A stretch of 64,000 nt of DNA from Heterodontus francisci (lineage: Eukaryota), in NCBI RefSeq assembly GCF_036365525.1, contig NC_090399.1, forward strand, positions 60,110,430 through 60,174,429, written 5' to 3'. The notes below the pieces were generated by a model. The model made no database searches. It worked only from the letters and a program-made list of their open reading frames with translations, and was not told where the DNA came from. The position numbers and the translations under genes were made by a program. Below, in pieces: positions 3,066 to 39,788 of this stretch. Every line of letters starts with the position of its first letter. Positions within the stretch are counted from its first letter, which is position 1.

Positions 3066-3367
3066 AAATCTCAAACATATTTTCCAAACACAATTTTTGT
3101 TTCAGACGTTCCAACCGTAATGGTCTCTCCACTATATAGTAAACAGAAGCCAGGAATTGGGTGGAGTGATGCACTTTGTTGTGGGGCTGAAAGACAGGAC
3201 CAGCTCTTTACCAACTCCCAATCATTCCCGGCTTTCCCCCACCTCCCCTTCACTCTGCTCCTGGATCTGTTTGGCTGTGTGTGTTTCACTGACAGTTGTG
3301 GAAGGCAGTCAGAACTGTTGGCTCTCTGTTATTTGGCTCTGATTGGCTGTGTGTGTTTGATTGACAG

Positions 3368-3640: not shown

Positions 3641-4066
3641 GTGAGTGAGTGGGTGGGGGTGGGGGGAGGGGGGAGAGTCAGTGAATGAGGTGGGACTGAG
3701 AGTCAGTGAGTGAGGGGGGTCTGAGAGTCAGTTAGTGAGGGGGGGGGACTGAGAGTCAGCGAGTGAGGGGGGACTGAAAGTCAGCGAGTAAGGTGGGACT
3801 GAGACTCAGCGAGTGAGGGGGGGACTGAGACTCTGAGTGAGGGGGGACTGAGACTCTGAGTGAGGGGGGACTGAGACTCTGAGTGAGGGGGTCTGAGACT
3901 CTGAGTGAGGGGGGACTGAGAGTTGGTGAGTGAGGGGGGACTGAGAGTCGGTGAGCGAGGGAGGAGGGACTGAGAGTCGGTGATTGAGGGGGAAGGGACT
4001 GAGTGTTGGTGAGTAAAGGGGGGACTGAGAGTCGGTGAGTCAGAAGAGGTGACTGAGAGTCGGTGG
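3641..4066 (+). repeat. G-rich intronic minisatellite, ~20-25 bp unit (gagtgagggggggactgagagtc)
   Basis: Imperfect tandem copies starting at the alpha2 splice donor. Confidence 0.9.
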
Positions 4067-4200
4067 TCTAAACCCCAGTTTAAAGGGGTACGTACTGTTA
4101 CCTGGAGTCAGGGTGTCTAAACCCCAGTTTAAAGGGGTATGTACCTTTCCCTGGGGTCAGGGGTCTAATCCCCAATTTAAAGGGATATTTGCCATTCCCT
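4066..4200 (+). repeat. ~50-bp tandem repeat, about 3 copies (gtctaaaccccagtttaaagggg...)
   Basis: Copies start near 4066, 4115 and 4164. Confidence 0.8.
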
Positions 4201-4241
4201 GTCTCTCACACTGACCTGCCTCTGATCTGTTTTACTCTCAG

Positions 4242-5920: not shown

Positions 5921-5924
5921 TACA

Positions 5925-6150
5925 ATAAAAACAGACAATGTTGGAAATACTCAGCAGGTCAGGTAGCATCTGTACAGAGAGCAATAGTGTTAACCTTTCA
6001 GATCAGTGACCTCCATTCTGACAAAGTGGTATTGACCTGAAACATTAACTCTGTTGCTCACATCATAGATGCTGCCTGACCTGCTGAGTATTTCTAGAAT
6101 GTTATGTTTTTATTTCAGATTTCCAGCATCTGCAGTGTTTTATTTTGTTG
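5925..6150. mobile_element. Palindromic short repeat (inverted pair of Penelope-like/hammerhead-bearing units)
   Basis: Left arm ggaaatactcagcaggtcaggtagcatctgt...gttaacctttcag is the reverse complement of right arm ctgaaacattaac...agatgctgcctgacctgctgagtatttc. Confidence 0.75.
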
Positions 6151-7011: not shown

Positions 7012-8500
7012 GAATGATTGAATCACAGAATCGTTACCGTGCAGGAGAAGGCCATTCAGTCCATCTTGTCTACACTGGCTCTCTGAAAGAGCAATTTCCT
7101 CAGTTCCATTCAGCTGCCTTCTCCCTGTAACCCTGCACATTCTTCCTTTTCATATAACTGTCTAATTCCCTTTTGAATGCTTCAATTGAACCTGCCTCCA
7201 CCACGTTCTCAGGCAGTGCATTCTAAACCATAACCACTCACTGCATGAAACAGCTTTTCCTCATGTCACTTTAGCTTAACTTTACCAAATACTTGAAATC
7301 TGTGCCCTCTCATTCTCGATCCTTTCACGAGTGGGAACAGTTTCTCTCTCTCTACTCTGTTCAGACCCCTCATGATTTTGAATACCTCTATCAAATCACC
7401 TCTCAGCGTTCTCTTCTCCAAGGAAAACAGTCTTAACTTCTCCAATCTATCTTCATAACTGAAGTTCTTCATCCCTGGAACCATTCTCGTGAATCCTTTC
7501 TGTAATCTCTCCAATGCCTTCACATCTTTCCTAAAGTGCAGCCACCAGAACTGGATGCAATGCTCCAGCTGAGGCCAAACTAGTGTCTTATATAAATTCA
7601 ACATAACTTCCTTGCTCTTGTACTCTATCCCCCTACTAATAAAGCACAGGATACTGTATGCTTTATTAACCTCTCTTTCAACCTGTCCTGCCACCTTCAA
7701 TGACTTTTGCACATATACACATAGGTCCCTCTGCTCCTGCCCCCCCTTCTGAATTGTACCCTTTATTCTATATTGTCTCTCCATGTTCATCCTATCCTCA
7801 TTACTCCATACTACTTTGCCAAAAGTTTTATCATTTGCAAACTTTATAATGCTGTTCCCTACACCTAAGCCTAAGCCATTTATAAATGTTGCCAAGAGTA
7901 ATGGACCCAAAACTGACCCTTGGGAAACAACACTGCCCCCCACTTCCCAATCTGAAAAACATCTACCAACATCCTTTGCTTCCAGTCACTGAGCCAGTTT
8001 CATATCCCCTTGGTTCCATGGGCTGACATCTCCTTAATAAGCCTCCTGTGCAGCATTTTGCTGAACGCCTTCCAAAAGTCCATATGTGCAACATCTATTG
8101 AACTATTTGTCAGTTCCAAAGAAGGGTCACTGACCCGAAACATTAACTCTGCTTCTCTTTTCACAGATGCTGTCAGACCTACTGAGTGGTTCCAGCATTT
8201 CTTGTTTTTATATCTATTGAAATATGTTGATCAATCTTCTTCGTTACCTCATCAAAGAATTCAATCAAGTTGGTCAGACACAATTTGCCTTTAACAAACC
8301 CATGCTGGCTCTTCTTAATTAACCCATGCCTTTCCAATTGAAAGTTAATTTTGTCCTTGATACTGGATTTGAATAACTTCCCCACTACCAATTATCAGCT
8401 GACTGGCCTGTGATTTCCTGGTTTATCCCTCTCCCCTTTCTTTAATAGTGGTATAACATTAGCAACCCTCCAGTTCTCCAATAGCGCTCCTATATCCAAT
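7012..8500 (-). mobile_element. CR1 LINE fragments (at least two abutting or nested copies)
   Basis: ORFs 7266-7943 (SQGSVLGPLL, LYKTLVWPQLE), 8179-8391 (SQHGFVKGKLCLTNL), 8395-8583 (WRVANVIPL..KPGNHRPVS). Confidence 0.9.
8103..8211 (+). mobile_element. Short hammerhead-like/Penelope-type retroposed unit with 10-bp TSD
   Basis: Flanked by atctattgaa at 8093-8102 and 8212-8221; same body as the 5925, 34310 and 39605 copies. Confidence 0.75.
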
Positions 8501-12677: not shown

Positions 12678-13478
12678 AGCGTGAGGGGGCTGAGGAACAG
12701 GAAGTGAGAGGACCGAGGGCCCATATGGGGAGCTGGGACTGAGGGACTCTTACACGGAGTGAGAGGACTGGGGGTCCCGTACATGGAGTGAGGGGACTGG
12801 GGGCCTGTACAGGGAGTGAGGTGACTGAGGGCCTGTACAGGGAGTGAGGGGACTGGGGGCCTGTACAGGGAGTGAGGTGACTGAGGGCCCATATCGGGAG
12901 TCAGGGGACTGAGGTCCCGTACAGGGAGTGAGGGGACTGGGGGCCTGTACAGTGAGTGAGGTGACTGAGGGCCTGTACAGGGAGTGAGGGGACTGTGGGC
13001 CTGTACAGGGAGTGAGGGGACTGGGGGCCCATATCGGGAGTCAGGGGACTGAGGTCCCGTACAGGGAGTGAGGTGACTGAGGGCCTATATGGGGAGTCAG
13101 GGGACTGAGGGACCCTTACATGGAGTGAGGTGACTGAGGTCCCGTACAGGGAGTGAGAGGACTGAGGTCCCGTACAGGGAGTGAGGGGACTGAGATCCCG
13201 TACAGGGAGTGAGGTGACTGAGGTCCCGTACAGGGTGTGAGGTGACTGAGGGCCCATATAGGGAGTCAGGGGACTGGAGTCCCCTACAGGGAGTGAGGGG
13301 ACTGGGGGCCTGTACAGGGAGTGAGGGGACTGAGATCCCGTACAGGGAGTGAGGGGACTGAGGTCCCGTACAGGGTGTGAGGTGACTGAGGGCCCATATG
13401 GGGAGTCAGGGGACTGAGGTCCCCTACAGGGAGTGAGGGGACTGGGGGGCCTGTACAGGGGATGAAGGGACTGGGCTG
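12678..13478 (+). repeat. G-rich intronic minisatellite, ~28-bp unit (gtacagggagtgaggggactgaggtccc)
   Basis: About 28 imperfect tandem copies with recurring variants. Confidence 0.92.
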
Positions 13479-15892: not shown

Positions 15893-17060
15893 GTTGATTC
15901 CGAATTGAAGATTACTCGAACTAGAGATTGGACTGGCTGTGTCACTGGGAGGATTCATTTAGAAACAATCTGGATGTTTTATCTTTATTTGGCTGTGTTT
16001 TATATAGTGAAACAATACATCTATCATTTATTGGAATTCTGAGTTTATTTTCTGCTTGGTAATTTGGTAGAAATCTCCAGTTGAATATTTTGGAGTTTAA
16101 TATTGAGATGTTTCTAATTGCTGTTGTTGCTTGCATTCCTGCATCTGAGAAATGTTCATTTAAACCAGTAAAGGGAAGGGATCGACAGGCCGTGACCAAT
16201 CACAGATCACTGAGCACAGGGAGGGATCGACAGGCCGTGACCAATCACAGATCACTGAGCACAGGGAGGGATCGACAGGCCGGTGACCAATCACAGATCA
16301 CTGAGCACAGGGAGGGATCGACAGGCAGGTGACCAATCATAGATCACTGAGCACAGGGAGGGATCGACAGGCCGGTGACCAATCATAGATCACTGAGCAC
16401 AGGGAGGGATCGACAGGCCGGTGACCAATCATAGATCACTGAGCACAGGGAGGGATCGACAGGCTGGTGACGAATCACTGAGCACAGGGAGGGATCGACA
16501 GGCAGATGAACAATCACAGATCACTGAGCACAGGGAGGGATCGACAGGCCGTAACTAATCACAGATCACTGAACACAGGGAGGGATCGACAGGCCGGTGA
16601 CCGGTCATAGATCACTGAGCACAGGGAGGGATCGACAGGCCACTGACCAATCACAAATCACTGAGCATAGGGAGGGATCGACAGGCCACTGACCAATCAC
16701 AGATCACTGATTATAGGGAGGGATCGACAGGCCACTGACCAATCACAGATCACTGACTATGTTTCTATCTCTTCCCTCTGGGAGGTTCGACGTTTTAATT
16801 CTCTGATCAGTTTAAGTTTCTGTTTTTTAACTGTCCGTCTTCATTGGTGCCTGAGGTTGGATCCTGTGTTTCCCGGGAATGTGGTTTATTAAATGAAATG
16901 AACAGCTTCACTTCCCTGAACCCAGTCTGTCACTGGCCTGTTGTGTGAGCCGAGGGTGGGGAATGTAAAATGTTTGGGATTGCACTCTGTACCACTCTAC
17001 GTACTGGATTAAAGTTTACATTTGTACCTATTGAATAATAAAAACACTTGTTCCACAAAC
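15893..17060 (+). other. Candidate terminal 3' UTR exon of the class I gene
   Basis: Acceptor ctgtccatctttcatttgccag at 15892; ATTAAA 17008 and AATAAA 17037 followed by a GT-rich tract; inferred only. Confidence 0.35.
16173..16757 (+). repeat. 45-46 bp minisatellite, ~13 copies (gggagggatcgacaggccggtgaccaatcacagatcactgagcaca)
   Basis: Highly similar tandem copies; one internally deleted copy near 16450-16490. Confidence 0.95.
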
Positions 17061-31197: not shown

Positions 31198-33945
31198 CTT
31201 TTTTTTTATTCATTCATGGGATGTGGGCGACGCTGGCCAGGCCAGCATTTATTGCCCATCCCTAATTGCCCTTGAGAAGGTGGTGATGAGCTGCCTTCTT
31301 CAACCGCTGCAGTCCATGTGGGGTAGGTACACCCACTGAAAGGAAGCGAGTTCCAGGATTTTGGCCCAGCGATAGTGAAGGAACGGCGATATAGTTCCAA
31401 GTCAGGATGGTGTGTGACTTGGACGCGAACTTGCAGGTGGTGATGTTCCTATGTATTTGCTGCCCTTGTCCTTCTAGGTGGTAGAGGTCGCGGGTTTGGA
31501 AGGTGCTGTCTAAGGAGCCTTGGTGCATTGCTGCAGTGCATCTTCTAGAATGTACACACTGCTGCCACTGTGCGTCTGTGGTGGAGGGAGTGAATGTTTG
31601 TAGATGGGGTGCCAATCAAGCGGGCTGCTTTGTCCTGGATGGTGTCGAGCTTCTTCAGTGTTGTTGGAGCTGCACCCATCCAGACAAGTGGAGAGTATTC
31701 CATCATACTCCTGACTTGTGCCTTGTAGATGGTGGACAGGCTTTGGGGAGTCAGGAGGAGAGTTACTCGCGAATGTTACTTGCCACTTATCAGCCCAAGC
31801 CTGGATATTGTCCAGGTCTTGCTGCATTTCTACACGGACTGCTTCAGTATCTGAGGAGTCACAAATGGTGCTGAACATTGTGTAATCATCAGCGAACATC
31901 CCCACTTCTGACCTTATGATTGAAGGAAGATCATTGATGAAGCAGCTAAAGATGGTTGGGCCTAGGACACTACCCTGAGGAACTCCAGCAGTGATGTCCT
32001 GGAGCTCAGATGATTGACCTCCAACAACCACAACCATCTTCCTTTGCGCTAGGTATTACTCCAGCCAGCGGAGAGTTTTCCCCCTGATTCCCATTGACGT
32101 CAGTTTTGCTAGGGCTCCTTGATGCCATACTCGGTCAAATGCTGCCTTGATGTCAAGTGCAGTCACTCTCACCTCACCTTTTGAGTTCAGCTCTTTTGTC
32201 CATGTTTGAACCAAGGCTCTAATGAGGTCAGGAGCTGAGTGGCCCTGGCGCAACCCAAATTGAGCGTCACTGGGCAGGTTATTGCTTAGCAAGTGCCGCT
32301 TGATGGCACTGTTGATGACCCCTTCCATCACATTACTGATGATAGAGAGTAGGCTGATGGGGCAGTAATTGGCCGGGTTGGATTTGTCCTGCTTTTTGCG
32401 TACAGGACATACCTGGGCAATTTTCCACATTGCAGGGTAGATGCCAGTGTTGTAGCTGTACTGGAACAGCTTGGCTAGGGCGCGCGGCAAGTTCTGGAGC
32501 ACAGATCTTCAGTACTATTGCCGGAATTTTATCAGGGCCCATAGCCTTTGCAGTATCCAGTGTCTTCAGTCGTTTCTTGATATCACGCGGAGTGAATCGA
32601 ATTGGCTGAAATCAGGCATCTGTGATGCTGGGGACTTCAGGAGGAGGCCGAGATGGATCATCGGCACTTCTGGCTGAAGATTGTTGCAAATGCTTCAGCC
32701 TTATCTTTCGCACTGATGTGCTGGGCTCCCCCAACATTGAGGATGGGGATATTTAAGAGCCACCTCCTCCAGTTAGTTGTTTAATTGTCCACCACCATTC
32801 ACAGCTGGATGTAGCAGGACTGCAGAGCTTAGATCTGATCCGTTGGTTATGGGATCACTTAGCTCTGTCTATCGCATGCTGCTTACACAGTTTGGCACGC
32901 AGATAGTCCTGTGTTGTAGCTTCACCAGGTTGACACCTCATTTTGAGGTATGCCTGGTGCTGCTCCTGGCATGCCCTCCTGCACTCTTCATTGAACCAGG
33001 GTTGGTCTTCTGGCTTGATGGTCATGGTAGAGTGGGGGATATGCCGGGCCATGAAGTTACAGATTGTGGTTGATCACAATTCTGCTGCTGATGATGACCC
33101 ACTGCGCCTCATGGATGCCCAGTTTTGCATTGCTAGATCTGTTCAAAATCTATCCCATTTAGCACGGTGATCGTGCCACACAACACGATGGACAGTATCC
33201 TCAATGTGAAGGCGGGACCTCATCTCCACAAGGACTGTGTGGTGGTCACTCCTACCAATACAGTCATGGACAGAAGCATTTGCAGCAGGCAGATTGGTGA
33301 GGACGAGGTCAAGTAGGTTTTTCCCTTGTGTTGGTTCCCCCACCACCTGCCACAGACCCAGTCTAGCAGCTATGTCCTTTAGGACTCGGCCAGCTCGGTC
33401 AGTAGTGGGGCTACCGAGCCACGCTTGGTGATGGACATTGAAGTCCCCCACCCAGAGTACATTCTGTGCCCTTGCCACCCTCAGTGATTCCTCCAAGTGG
33501 TGTTCAACATGGTGTAGTACTGAGTCATCAGCTGAGGGAGGGCGGTAGGTGGTAATCAGTAGGAGGTTACCTTGCCCATGTTTGACCTGATGCCATGAGA
33601 CTTCATGGGGTCCGGATTCAATGTTGAGGACTCCCAGGGCAACTCCCTCCCAACTGTATACCACTGTGCCACCACCTCTGATGGGTCTGTCCTGAAGTGG
33701 GACAGGACATACCCAGGGATAGTGATTGCAGTGTCTGGGACATTGTCTGTAAGGTATGATTCCGTGAGTATGACTATGCCAGGCAGTTGCTTGACTAGTT
33801 TGTGTGACAGCTCTCCCAACTTTGGCACATGCCCCCAGATGTTAGTAAGGAGGACTTTGCAGGGTCGACAGGGTTGGGTTTGCCGTTGTCGTTTCTGGTG
33901 CCTAGGTCGATGCCGGGTGGTCCGTCTGGTTTCATTCCTTTTTCT
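31198..33945 (-). mobile_element. Second, less decayed copy of the (TGAA)-tail CR1/L2-group LINE, nested in the Copia element
   Basis: TTYRPPS, GDFNVHH, GRSDHHTV, NYCPISLLSII, LDIKAAFDRVWH, GVPQGSVLGP, FADD; tail ttttattcattcatggg. Confidence 0.92.
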
Positions 33946-34309
33946 GCTTCTGGTTCTGCTCAAGACTGTTCTATAGCCCTCATTTCATTGTGTAATCTAT
34001 TCAAGATATAGCTTGTACTTGCACGTTGATGTTTTTTGGGACTATTGCTGTGAGATCTCTATCTCACACTATTGCATGCTCCTTCTCTGGTATATGACTG
34101 TTTTCTGACTAGAGTCACCTTTGAACCCATTTAGAACTTGCACTGCGCTTTCTTACTCTCCATTCATTCACCCAATTCTGCCAGTCCATGGACCTCACTT
34201 CTTGACCACCATCCTGAACATTCAACCAATATTTAAACTTGGCCGTAGCTTTTCCTGCATGCCCCCCAATTGTCACATCCCTTCATTTTCCAGACTCCTC
34301 TGGAATATA

Positions 34310-34404
34310 AACACGAGAAACACTGGAAATACTCAGCAGGTCTGGCAGCATCTGTGGAGAGAGAAGTAGAGTTAACGTTTCAGGTCAGTGACCTTTCTTC
34401 AGAA
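34310..34404 (-). mobile_element. Short hammerhead-like/Penelope-type retroposed unit with 13-bp TSD
   Basis: cctctggaatata at 34297-34309 and 34405-34417. Confidence 0.8.
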
Positions 34405-34405
34405 C
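34368..34405 (-). ncRNA. Minimal type I hammerhead ribozyme-like motif
   Basis: Minus strand GTT-CTGAAGA-A-AGGTCA-C-TGACCT-GAAAC-GTT-AAC: conserved core, stem II, palindromic stem III, short stem I. Confidence 0.55.
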
Positions 34406-35136
34406 CTCTGGAATATACATCACTCATGGACCCACTGTGGACAATTGGTCTTTGGATGTAATAGCTCTGTCCTGTGTTTCATGATCACTCATGTTACCAG
34501 TATCCGCCCTTGATCACTGTATTTTGTTCCTCAGGACCTTCTCACAAAACACATGAGCATTTGAGGTACAAGGTGCCTTGTTTCCTTCTATCAGCTGCTC
34601 AGATTCTGAGATTTTGTAATCAACTCTGACTAATCATGAAGAATGAAGCTTAACAGTTTGATTGAAATGTTTGATAAGTAGTGTCTTCCCATCACGATCT
34701 ATTACATTACCAGGGCATTTCCATTTCCTATGACCCTCTCTTTTATAATACACCAAACCTCCTGAATTAAATTCTGTTTAAAATGGCCTTATTTGATGCC
34801 TCACAGCTCTTCAAATTTTCTCAGAGAACTCAGTCTTGATGAAAGCCCGTCTCCCTGCATGTAAAGAAGTCAAGTGTGCAGCAAAAATGGAACTAACTGT
34901 CGTACCTTCTCGTGTAGGAGGACTATCACACAGCACAGAAAGCAATTTTAGATTTCGCCCATAGACCAATTGAGAGGGACTATATCCCCCAACCATCTGA
35001 CACGGATTCTTTGCATGAACTGCCCATGCCAGAGCAGTTGCCAACTTGCAGTTTGCTTGATCATCTGGATTTTAAGCAGCATTTCATTGATTGCCGTGTG
35101 ATTCCTTTCACAGAGTCCATTGCTGAAAGGATATAC

Positions 35137-35445
35137 GAACATACAAATTAGGAGCAGGAGTAGGCCACCTGGCTCCTTGAGCCTACTCCGCCATTCAATA
35201 AGATCATGGCTGATCTGATTGTAAGCTCAACTCCACATTCCCACCTTCCCCCAATAACCTTTCACCCCTTGCTTATCAAGAATCAATCTACCTCTGCCTT
35301 AAAAATATTAAAAGACTCTGCTTCCATCGCTTTTTGAGGAGGAGAATTCCAAAGACTCACAACCCTCTGAGAGAAAAAAAAATTCTCATCTTTGTCTTAA
35401 ATGGGTGACCCCTTATTTTAAAACAGTGACCCCTAGTTCTAGACT
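35137..35445 (-). mobile_element. CR1 3' end inserted in the Copia integrase
   Basis: gaacatac..ttaggagcaggagtaggcca tail; splits the TAESP|FSNG integrase motif. Confidence 0.85.
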
Positions 35446-36271
35446 AGGACTTTCGGCAGTCGAATTCATGACCATAATGTTTATCTTTTCACATATGTGT
35501 CTGAACTCATCATTGGCAAATTCCCCTCCATTATCAGTCAGTGCCCCAAGTCCAGTCCCTATCCATTTCTCCATGATTGTATCTATAATCACCCTTTTGT
35601 CCTTGCTATGAATTATTATTAAAAGACGGAATCAAATTGTCTGGTCAATAAAATGTAGAATAAAAATATTTCTGTCTTTGTCCCACACCTTTAGATCCAG
35701 GACAACTCCCTTGTTAAAGTCACTTGTCAATGGAAGGCTGGCAATAGGCCGCGGCAGTGTCCTTCGATACTTTTTACAGATTTCACAATTCTCACTAATC
35801 TCTTCTATTAACCTCATAGAACCTTCATCAACCACACCAGCATCTTTTAACAGGATTTTTAACCATTGACAAGTAGAGTGTGTAAATTGTCTATGCAACT
35901 TTAAGACAATTTGTTTGTTTTCCTCTCTGATTCTTATCACCTGATGCCATTAATTCTTGTCTTATACTCTGATGTGAAACATTAGGTTGTGTTAGGGGGA
36001 TACAATAATGTCCTGATTGGGTAAACTCCAGATCCACTGCCTTGTTATGTTCCATGTCAAGTTTCATTTGTGCTTTATTCAGCAGCAGAGGTATGTCACT
36101 GGAGATTGTATCAGGACTGATAAAGTGGCTTACTCCAGCCGGAAACTCCATCGATCAAACATGATGGACACGGAGCAAACAATCTATTTAGGTGGAGTGT
36201 CTTCTTTTGGTGCACCTTTGCTGATGGCTGTGAAGGCCAATCCTTGAGAGGCAGAGCCTACATGTGCCGCA

Positions 36272-39192: not shown

Positions 39193-39604
39193 CGGATCTG
39201 CTAACATTCTAATGATGCCAACTGAACTGCTTTTAATGTCATTAAATATTGTTTCTTAATGGTCTACACACGCAATCAGTTCATATCCAATACAAACAGC
39301 TGTTGGCTAAATCAGTATTAACAGCAGTCACACCATTTCAGACGTTTAACAGACTCAAAGCAGGTTACATTTTTTTTTTAAACATCCTTTAAACAGATGA
39401 GTTCCTTTCCCTCTAATTCTATTACCTAGTACTCACTGGAAAGTGACATTCTTGGGATTATTTTACAGAACAGTTCAAATCCAGCCAAGTTTCAGTGTTA
39501 TTTAACAATGCAAGGGATTTATATATATGGTGGAAGATTTTAGTTCGGCCAACTGACAGAATTTCCATGATTATAAGAATTAAACCAACAAGAGATTAAT
39601 ATCA

Positions 39605-39788
39605 AGATAAAATGGTGGAAATGCTCAGCAGGCAGGTAGCATTATGTGTTCTGATGAAAGGTCACTGACCTGAAACATTAACTCTGCTTCTCTCTCCACA
39701 GATGCTGCCAGACCTGCTGAGAATTTCCAGCAATTTTTGTTTTCATTTCAGATTTTCAGCATCTGCAGTATTTTGCTTTTATTTTAGC
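39605..39788 (+). mobile_element. Hammerhead-like/Penelope-type short repeat with partial inverted 5' arm
   Basis: gtt-ctgatga-a-aggtca-c-tgacct-gaaac-att-aac at 39648-39682, then agatgctgccagacctgctgag...; inverted arm at 39615-39642. Confidence 0.75.

What the first reader, a model, noticed from the sequence alone, without database searches (positions are those of the whole stretch)
34297..34417. Short retroposed elements with a minimal hammerhead ribozyme-like core (4 copies in 35 kb)
Seen: a 95-bp insert with a perfect 13-bp TSD begins, on the minus strand, almost exactly at GTT-CTGAAGA-A-AGGTCACTGACCT-GAAAC-GTT-AAC. Related copies are at 39648 (CTGATGA core; triplet ATT, consistent with CpG decay of GTT), 8113 (10-bp TSD; degenerate core, but stem II is GGGTCA/TGACCC, a compensatory change) and ~6017. 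Knowledge: CUGANGA...GAAA with a loopless palindromic stem III is the minimal type I hammerhead found in Penelope-like elements, thought to cleave as dimers. Inference: a non-autonomous, ribozyme-processed retroelement family in this shark, mobilised by target-primed reverse transcription.
Basis: partly seen in the sequence, partly recalled or inferred. Interest (0 to 1): 0.7.

Follow-up and report, generated by a model that had tools for sequence, protein, structure and literature searches.

The report
Hammerhead-headed Penelope retrotransposon run-off stubs
These short repeats are the 100-140-base end module of an ordinary, very abundant Penelope-like jumping gene rather than a separate ribozyme family; they start about 31 bases before the predicted ribozyme cut, likely because the element's capped RNA begins there and is copied uncut.

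Summary
In detail: four loci (six arms), a 13-bp and a 10-bp target duplication, and a minimal type I hammerhead motif. The reading 'non-autonomous, ribozyme-processed family' does not. The same module ends 3.3-kb Penelope-like elements with a 916-codon RT + GIY-YIG frame (Neptune-type linker). I extrapolate about 4x10^5 arms genome-wide (100 in 1.37 Mb sampled). 5' ends peak at the hammerhead's first bases (22 of 99 in 9 nt). The 14 nt around the cut site hold 8 of 99, five of them beside a nested DNA element. The peak sits on an initiator-like TCAGTT with a TATA-like box 25-31 nt upstream and shows excess 5' G (22 of 35 versus 11 of 43). 3' ends fall at two sites about 37 nt apart (the PLE tail). 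Best reading: cDNAs primed at the tail and run off the capped 5' end of uncut element RNA. The youngest subfamily carries a U4C core change. Cleavage and RNA start were not testable (no raw reads). This scan has reported this reading before, in this genome (79 notes match) and in other genomes.

The parts
34297..34309 (.). Target-site duplication, left copy (13 bp)
   Evidence: exact repeat
34405..34417 (.). Target-site duplication, right copy; base 34405 also supplies the G of stem I (1-nt overlap)
34310..34404 (-). 95-bp insert: Penelope-like end module from the inferred RNA start (reference 3160/3161) to the proximal 3' end (about 3255-3259), no tail
34371..34405 (-). Minimal type I hammerhead motif: stem I GTT/AAC (34405-34403 with 34373-34371), core CTGAAGA 34402-34396, bulged A 34395, stem II AGGTC/GACCT 34394-34382 with loop ACT, GAAA 34381-34378, loopless palindromic ACGT stem III, triplet GTT 34376-34374
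   Evidence: sequence; stem II pair probability 0.89-0.94, stem I about 0.1
34373..34374 (-). Predicted cleavage site (after GUU), 31 nt inside the insert; not cut in this copy
   Evidence: sequence; hammerhead numbering from established knowledge
39648..39787 (+). 140-bp copy (reference 3160-3299) with tail; older subfamily, core CTGATGA, triplet decayed to ATT
39598..39646 (-). Inverted stub of the same module, head-to-head with the 39648 copy; no target duplication found outside the pair
8104..8211 (+). Copy of the young subfamily starting about 8 nt upstream of the usual start; core CCAAAGA (CpG decay of CCGAAGA, inferred), triplet ATT, proximal 3' end
8093..8102 (.). 10-bp target duplication, left copy (right copy 8212-8221)
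5924..6019 (-). Old head-to-head pair, left arm (proximal 3' end)
6033..6141 (+). Old head-to-head pair, right arm (reaches into the tail); no target duplication found

Best explanation
The inserts are dead copies of the 100-140-base hammerhead-plus-tail end module of an autonomous Neptune-type Penelope-like retrotransposon, likely made when the element's reverse transcriptase primes at the tail near the 5' end of its own uncut RNA and runs off the capped RNA start, which likely lies at the hammerhead's first base. Shown: the module is identical in kind to the end repeat of 3.3-kb RT + GIY-YIG elements; there are two 3' ends about 37 nt apart; 5' ends peak sharply at reference 3159-3160 with a shoulder downstream; target duplications run about 10-16 bp; many copies are head-to-head pairs. 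Inferred: (1) a TATA + initiator promoter in the upstream pseudo-LTR starts RNA at A3159/G3160; (2) the protein nicks target DNA and primes at one of the two tail sites, as shown in vitro for the anole element PAc; (3) on a pLTR-ORF-pLTR RNA, priming at the first tail copy gives a 100- or 138-nt run-off cDNA, and priming at the last gives long copies; (4) priming from both nicked strands, one per site, gives the head-to-head pairs; (5) the stubs lack the upstream TATA box and are mostly not re-mobilised; (6) the ribozyme does not define the copied RNA and may cleave weakly or only with protein help.
For: 17 of 20 independent best hits extend 20 to more than 1,500 nt upstream of the module. L066 is a partial tandem with a 916-codon stop-free frame carrying RT motifs, a CX4CX2C linker and a GIY-YIG-like motif. 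Its homologues carry PF00078, and 22 of the 120 listed carry PF01541 (counted by eye). In 137 unselected 10-kb stretches, 22 of 99 5' ends fall in 3155-3163, against 9 in the 54 nt upstream (p 1e-12) and 25 in 3164-3181: a sharp upstream edge with a downstream shoulder. Copies that continue into the ORF start there too (6 of 30). In 5 of 6 composite copies an ORF stretch is joined to a module starting at 3158-3162, without a GT donor. Long copies of both subfamilies show initiator-like YCAGTT at the peak and mostly an AT-rich TATA-like box at -31 to -25. G precedes the start in 22 of 35 copies starting at 3159/3160, against 11 of 43 at other starts (Fisher p 0.0013). In genome-wide listings it is 58 of 100 against 38% expected, and 49 of 73 against 43% (tallied by eye). 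An extra G at full-length L1 5' junctions is attributed to the cap (PMC11702581, passage). 12 of 13 scorable head-to-head pairs have one proximal and one distal 3' end (p 0.0013). For PAc, RT starts at two internal sites that define the tail, both strands are extended, and ribozyme mutants insert normally (PMC11167929).
Against: No RNA 5' end was seen: only assembled contigs were offered. The G excess is modest (about 1.5-1.8-fold). In some copies the G is target- or partner-arm-derived, and 7 or more paired arms slipped into the 35 'solo' copies. D. virilis Penelope has a TATA-less internal promoter with an intron 46 nt after the start (PMC2377424), and that intron ends at helix I (PMC4209133), so an RNA start at the hammerhead is not the rule in PLEs. 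The same bases read as a 3' splice acceptor (pyrimidines, then CAG). The test against a short-only lineage has low power (27 and 52 copies). Clade assignment rests on motifs, not a tree.
Confidence: 0.7

Rival explanations
1. Ordinary 5' truncation: all copies are primed at the last tail of the RNA, and the RT tends to stall or drop at the 5' edge of the hammerhead fold or at a protein bound there. The peak is a pause site, not an RNA start.
For: 36 of 99 copies extend upstream and form a continuous truncation series; heavy 5' truncation is typical of PLEs (PMC8557442); solo minimal hammerheads were read as truncated PLEs (PMC4209133). Needs no promoter inference.
Against: An RT moving 3' to 5' has already opened stem I before reaching its 5' strand (inference), and stem I is weak (pair probability 0.09-0.27). 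It does not explain the initiator/TATA match, the 5' G excess, or ORF-bearing copies that begin at the same base.
Confidence: 0.18
2. One reading: a non-autonomous, retrozyme- or SINE-like family. Short copies are transcribed on their own (the initiator and RT start sites lie inside the module), processed by the dimeric ribozyme and re-mobilised in trans.
For: 63 of 99 copies hold nothing upstream of the module; clean target duplications; PLE-derived retrozymes are reported in vertebrates, including one chondrichthyan (bioRxiv 10.64898/2026.07.22.740005).
Against: 5' ends do not match the cut: 8 of 99 in 3182-3195, five abutting a nested inverted-repeat DNA element. No tandem arrays of the module in the window or among the copies listed. 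No short-only cluster (p 0.13 and 0.71). Both subfamilies have long and short copies. The youngest master carries U4C.
Confidence: 0.07
3. The boundary is a 3' splice site (AG|TTC) and the stubs come from spliced RNA.
For: Pyrimidine-rich run and CAG directly before the module; an intron ends at helix I in D. virilis (PMC4209133).
Against: Stubs keep the A and/or G of the AG and share no upstream exon. Target duplications abut the start (L126, L293, window 34.3 kb). None of five composite junctions has GT after the breakpoint, and several have 2-8 extra bases.
Confidence: 0.05

Closest known systems
Endonuclease-positive Penelope-like elements, Neptune/Nematis type (Craig et al. 2021, PMC8557442; passages read)
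   Same: Single RT + C-terminal GIY-YIG frame with CX2-5CxxC linker, partial tandems forming pseudo-LTRs, adjacent inverted truncated copy, 30-40-bp tail on one side, hammerhead in the pLTR.
   Different: Most copies here are only the 100-140-nt module; no microsatellite targeting was apparent in the flanks printed; clade not confirmed by a tree.
Minimal hammerheads of metazoan PLEs (Cervera and De la Pena 2014, PMC4209133; parts 1-2 of 4 read, supplement file 2 searched, file 1 not searchable)
   Same: No loop III, palindromic 15.2-16.2, bulged base between A9 and 10.1, short stem I, mostly solo motifs, nearby motifs on opposite strands.
   Different: Stem II is 5 bp; the 10.1-11.1 pair is A-U or G-U in older copies; the young subfamily has U4C. 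No shark term in the searchable supplement. That paper proposes RNA processing, which the insert ends here do not show.
Poseidon PAc of Anolis carolinensis (Frangieh et al. 2024, PMC11167929; parts 1-2 of 4 and passages read)
   Same: Two internal RT start sites defining the tail, extension of both DNA strands, uncut RNA as substrate, no RNA ends at the cut site.
   Different: PAc's ORF starts inside the hammerhead; here the first ATG of the long frame lies about 30 nt after the tail. The text I read does not discuss an RNA start at the hammerhead or run-off stubs.
Non-LTR retrozymes (Li et al. 2026, bioRxiv 10.64898/2026.07.22.740005; part 1 of 5 and passages read)
   Same: Type I hammerhead units related to PLE pLTRs, non-coding.
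   Different: Retrozymes are defined as tandem arrays with cut-to-cut monomers; these are solo or head-to-head, with target duplications, and do not begin at the cut.

Membership tests
EN+ Penelope-like element (parent of the module) | RT domain in a single long frame | tested here: met
   916 codons, no stop; DVQSLY, GVAMG, YIDD; RVT_1 E 1.6e-5 but 25.2 bits, below the 29.6 cut-off; homologues carry PF00078
EN+ Penelope-like element (parent of the module) | C-terminal GIY-YIG endonuclease | tested here: met
   VVY...YIGET in several copies (L066 itself has CIGE); no Pfam GIY-YIG hit on L066; PF01541 on 22 of 120 listed homologues
EN+ Penelope-like element (parent of the module) | Partial tandem/pseudo-LTR, inverted truncated copy, 30-40-bp tail, target duplication | tested here: met
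   L056, L065, L066 direct repeats; L052, L054, L062, L070 inverted copies; two 3' ends
Neptune/Nematis clade | CX2-5CxxC zinc-finger linker before the endonuclease | tested here: met
   CNRKRCNTC at residue 782; definition from PMC8557442
Neptune/Nematis clade | CCHH motif in the endonuclease | tested here: inconclusive
   CxxC present in the GIY-YIG spacer; a strict-spacing pattern found no match; histidines seen by eye only
Neptune/Nematis clade | Placement in an RT tree with named references | not tested
   no named reference sequences were in hand
Minimal type I hammerhead | Core CUGANGA...GAAA...UH with stems I and II and palindromic 15.2-16.2 | tested here: met
   window 34.3-kb copy fits fully; 23 of 61 sampled full motifs are intact (8 with U4, 15 with C4)
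Minimal type I hammerhead | Covariation in stems | tested here: inconclusive
   one pair (10.1-11.1) switches G-C, G-U, A-U and loop II varies, but this is one or two inherited events; the other stem pairs are conserved without compensation
Minimal type I hammerhead | Self-cleavage as monomer or dimer | not testable with these tools
   hammerhead dimer evaluated at -8.9 kcal/mol against -20.0 for the best dimer of the 34.3-kb motif; needs an assay
Non-LTR retrozyme | Tandem units bounded by the cleavage site | tested here: not met
   no tandem array at these loci; 5' ends not at the cut
Non-autonomous SINE-like family | Own lineage distinct from the autonomous partner | tested here: not met
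   nearest-neighbour test p 0.13 and 0.71, low power; both subfamilies have long and short copies

The most novel reading that the evidence does not exclude
In this Penelope lineage the hammerhead is the very first 36 nt of the capped mRNA and is not what sets the ends of the copied RNA. On the order of 10^5 genomic stubs are a 'strong-stop'-like record of internal priming and run-off, and head-to-head pairs record two primings, one per DNA strand and one per tail site. The youngest, most successful subfamily (30,994 exact motifs) spread with a U4C core, so the fold may now serve as a 5' leader or protein-binding switch more than as a nuclease.
Probability: 0.5. Interest if true: 0.55.

Novelty: new member of a known kind. 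Interest (0 to 1): 0.33.

Why it matters
As a repeat it is ordinary: a Penelope-like element with the minimal hammerhead already described for the group. Its use is mechanistic. What the PLE hammerhead does, where PLE RNA starts, and how inverted pseudo-LTRs with a one-sided tail form are open questions. The stub ends give base-level predictions (RNA start at A3159/G3160, uncut template, two priming sites used on opposite strands), testable by CAGE and by the existing in vitro PLE assay. The score is held down because the family type is known and the mechanism is inferred from DNA only.

Tried and rejected
Rfam scan of the window: no hammerhead family up to E 5. PDB sequence search of the parent protein: 0 matches. 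The protein atlas did not hold the sequence. Lunse et al. 2016 was not held, so it is known only through a review's citation. Sequencing runs: only contigs were offered, most only guessed to be RNA, so start, cut, strand and expression could not be read. They show the module and the same 3' ends in runs labelled as organisms A-E, and U4 with N7=U in D and E. Apparent starts at the cut site: L048 is split by a GGGC...GCCC inverted-repeat element with the 5' half on its far side; L076, L100, L232 and L279 abut a similar end, far side not found or not checked. Splice-site reading rejected. The ten 99-100% hits are one duplicated block, not recent transposition. The column table was shifted by one base; pair and core counts are from the corrected. 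Literature: searches for hammerhead + Penelope + shark, Penelope-like + Neptune + shark, Penelope-like + twin priming, promoter terms and elasmobranch terms listed no paper on this family or on run-off stubs. Repbase/Dfam, subscription papers, the bioRxiv supplement of Li et al. and supplement file 1 of PMC4209133 were not visible and may hold the family.

Full report
Observation. The 95-bp minus-strand insert at 34310-34404 and its exact 13-bp duplication are real. Such a flanking repeat arose in 43 of 20,000 random spans. Related sequence lies at 39648-39787 with an inverted stub at 39598-39646, at 8104-8211 with a 10-bp duplication, and as a head-to-head pair at 5924-6141: four loci, six arms. 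The 34.3-kb copy reads as a minimal type I hammerhead: stem I GUU/AAC, CUGAAGA, a bulged A, a 5-bp stem II with a 3-nt loop, GAAA, a loopless ACGU and the triplet GUU. The predicted cut is 31 nt inside the insert. Rfam does not detect it.

What it belongs to. The genome is 6.0 Gb. Ten of the 30 best hits fetched are one duplicated block. Of the other 20, 17 share the module's 3' end but extend 20 to more than 1,500 nt upstream, and the longest carry RT and endonuclease remains. One of these, L019/L031, has the window's own hammerhead variant. A search with the RT region gave 4,338 candidates. Among 20 stretches fetched, L066 is a partial tandem with a unit of about 3.3 kb and a 916-codon stop-free frame. 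It has RT motifs, a CX4CX2C linker and a GIY-YIG-like motif; Pfam RVT_1 matches below its cut-off. Homologues carry RVT_1, and 22 of 120 listed carry GIY-YIG; the closest named is a bamboo shark protein at 70%. The linker marks Neptune/Nematis-type PLEs (PMC8557442, passages); no tree was made. Positions below are in the L066 unit: A of TCAGTT = 3159, cut after 3191, unit end 3299.

Abundance and ends. A profile search of 137 unselected 10-kb stretches (1.37 Mb) found 100 arms covering the module and 0 in the reversed control. That extrapolates to 4.4x10^5 arms (3.6-5.3x10^5). One arm at a stretch edge was dropped. Of 99, 36 start upstream of 3150, 1 at 3150-3154, 22 at 3155-3163, 25 at 3164-3181, 8 at 3182-3195 and 7 later. 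The peak against the 54 nt upstream has p 1e-12. Five of the eight near the cut abut the end of an inverted-repeat DNA element; for L048 the 5' half was found on its far side. 3' ends are bimodal: 42 at or before 3274, 54 at 3292-3299, 3 between. The same two ends appear as loose ends in contigs of the four runs laid. Exact 34-base motifs number 30,994 for the young variant and 4,560 for an older one, controls 0. Of the young motifs, 14,522 have the native 8 upstream bases. 2,842, 4,788 and 5,048 lose the native sequence one, two or three bases upstream (cores of 34, 33 and 32 bases). After allowing for long copies in those sets (1 of 20 and 4 of 20 sampled), about a third end at 3159-3161.

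Why they start there. The peak lies on an initiator-like YCAGTT, with an AT-rich TATA-like box at about -31 to -25 in most long copies of both subfamilies (consensus motifs recalled). Six of 30 copies that run on into the ORF start at 3157-3164 (four ran off the fetched DNA, two are duplicates, one starts at 3193). In five of six composite copies, an ORF stretch is joined to a module starting at 3158-3162, with no GT donor and up to 8 extra bases, as expected if cDNA ran off an RNA end and jumped. G precedes the start in 22 of 35 copies starting at 3159/3160, against 11 of 43 elsewhere (p 0.0013; some paired arms are among the 35). The first 100 genome-wide matches show the same excess (58 of 100 against 38%; 49 of 73 against 43%; tallied by eye, tested). 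In some copies the G lies between duplication and element, in others it is target- or partner-derived. For L1, an extra 5' G is attributed to the cap (PMC11702581, passage). Against this: no RNA end was observed, the excess is modest, and D. virilis Penelope uses a TATA-less internal promoter with an intron ending at helix I (PMC2377424 passages; PMC4209133 part 2). A rotifer PLE pLTR does have putative TATA and initiator motifs (PMC3846280 passages).

Head-to-head pairs. Fourteen pairs account for 28 of the 100 arms. One is cut by the stretch edge; 12 of the other 13 have one proximal and one distal 3' end (p 0.0013). PAc extends both DNA strands, starts at two internal sites that define the tail, and inserts equally well with a dead ribozyme (PMC11167929, parts 1-2). 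Two primings joined head to head is the simplest inference.

The ribozyme. In 61 full motifs (correcting a one-column shift) the core bases other than positions 4 and 7 are conserved in 56-61 of 61, N7 and loop II vary, and pair 10.1-11.1 is G-C 23, A-U 22, G-U 12, A-C 0. This follows subfamily (young G-C in 19 of 19; older A-U or G-U in 29 of 32), so it is one or two events, not independent covariation. The young subfamily has C at position 4 in 18 of 19; contigs labelled as organisms D and E have U, so U4C looks derived. U4C is a known natural variant that lowers activity in vitro (PMC3088659, passage). 23 of 61 motifs are intact on paper. Stem II folds well in the window copies, stem I poorly, and the hammerhead dimer is 11 kcal/mol above the best dimer for the 34.3-kb motif. 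Minimal PLE hammerheads show no monomer and low dimer activity (PMC4209133). Cleavage here is untested.

Independent family? Short and long copies occur in both subfamilies (15 and 12; 36 and 18). Short copies are not each other's nearest neighbours more than chance (p 0.13, 0.71, 27 and 52 copies, low power). Retrozymes are defined by tandem units (bioRxiv 10.64898/2026.07.22.740005, part 1 and passages); none is seen at these loci. Occasional re-mobilisation of a stub is not excluded.

Verdict. A new member of a known kind: stubs of an autonomous PLE with a PLE-type minimal hammerhead. Identity as a PLE end module is near certain; the run-off-from-capped-start mechanism I put at 0.7. I wrote that reading in my notes before opening the scan's earlier notes, which reach the same reading in this genome (79 notes fit) and others (138 findings). 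They are unchecked repeats, not independent support. My paper searches listed no description of this family or of run-off stubs, but repeat databases, subscription papers and two supplements were not visible.

Noticed in passing
window 40328-64000: 54-bp tandem satellite, about 436 copies at 93% match, strongly strand-skewed, running off the window end.
   Followed up: no
window 32800-35900; L001-L010: The flanks of the 34.3-kb insert are part of a duplicated block of at least 3 kb present 10 times (7 on C29 between 57.4 and 62.7 Mb, 3 on small contigs) at 98.5-100%.
   Followed up: partly
L048 (minus strand, near 1304), L076, L100, L232, L279, L057: A DNA element with GGGC...GCCC-type inverted ends sits repeatedly at the TTAA of the hammerhead's GTTAAC and mimics 5' ends at the cleavage site.
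   Followed up: partly
L177, L184, L283, L292, L298, L303-L305: Short pieces of the module's first bases are repeated at 5' junctions, like templated insertions of end joining.
   Followed up: no
L066:6880-7150, run X8: The one run on record as RNA shows 12 A>G places against 1-2 in the other three runs laid; possibly editing of hairpin copies, but there is no matched DNA.
   Followed up: no
L070:7443-7537: A more distant module with core CTGACGA and a stem II of GGCC/GGCC type, a further compensatory variant.
   Followed up: no
window 3673-4201, 12697-13473, 16172-16756: Minisatellite arrays of 25/49, 28 and 46 bp.
   Followed up: no
L068/L069: A 7.1-kb tandem duplication at 99.9% that includes a 2.3-kb truncated copy of the element.
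   Followed up: no
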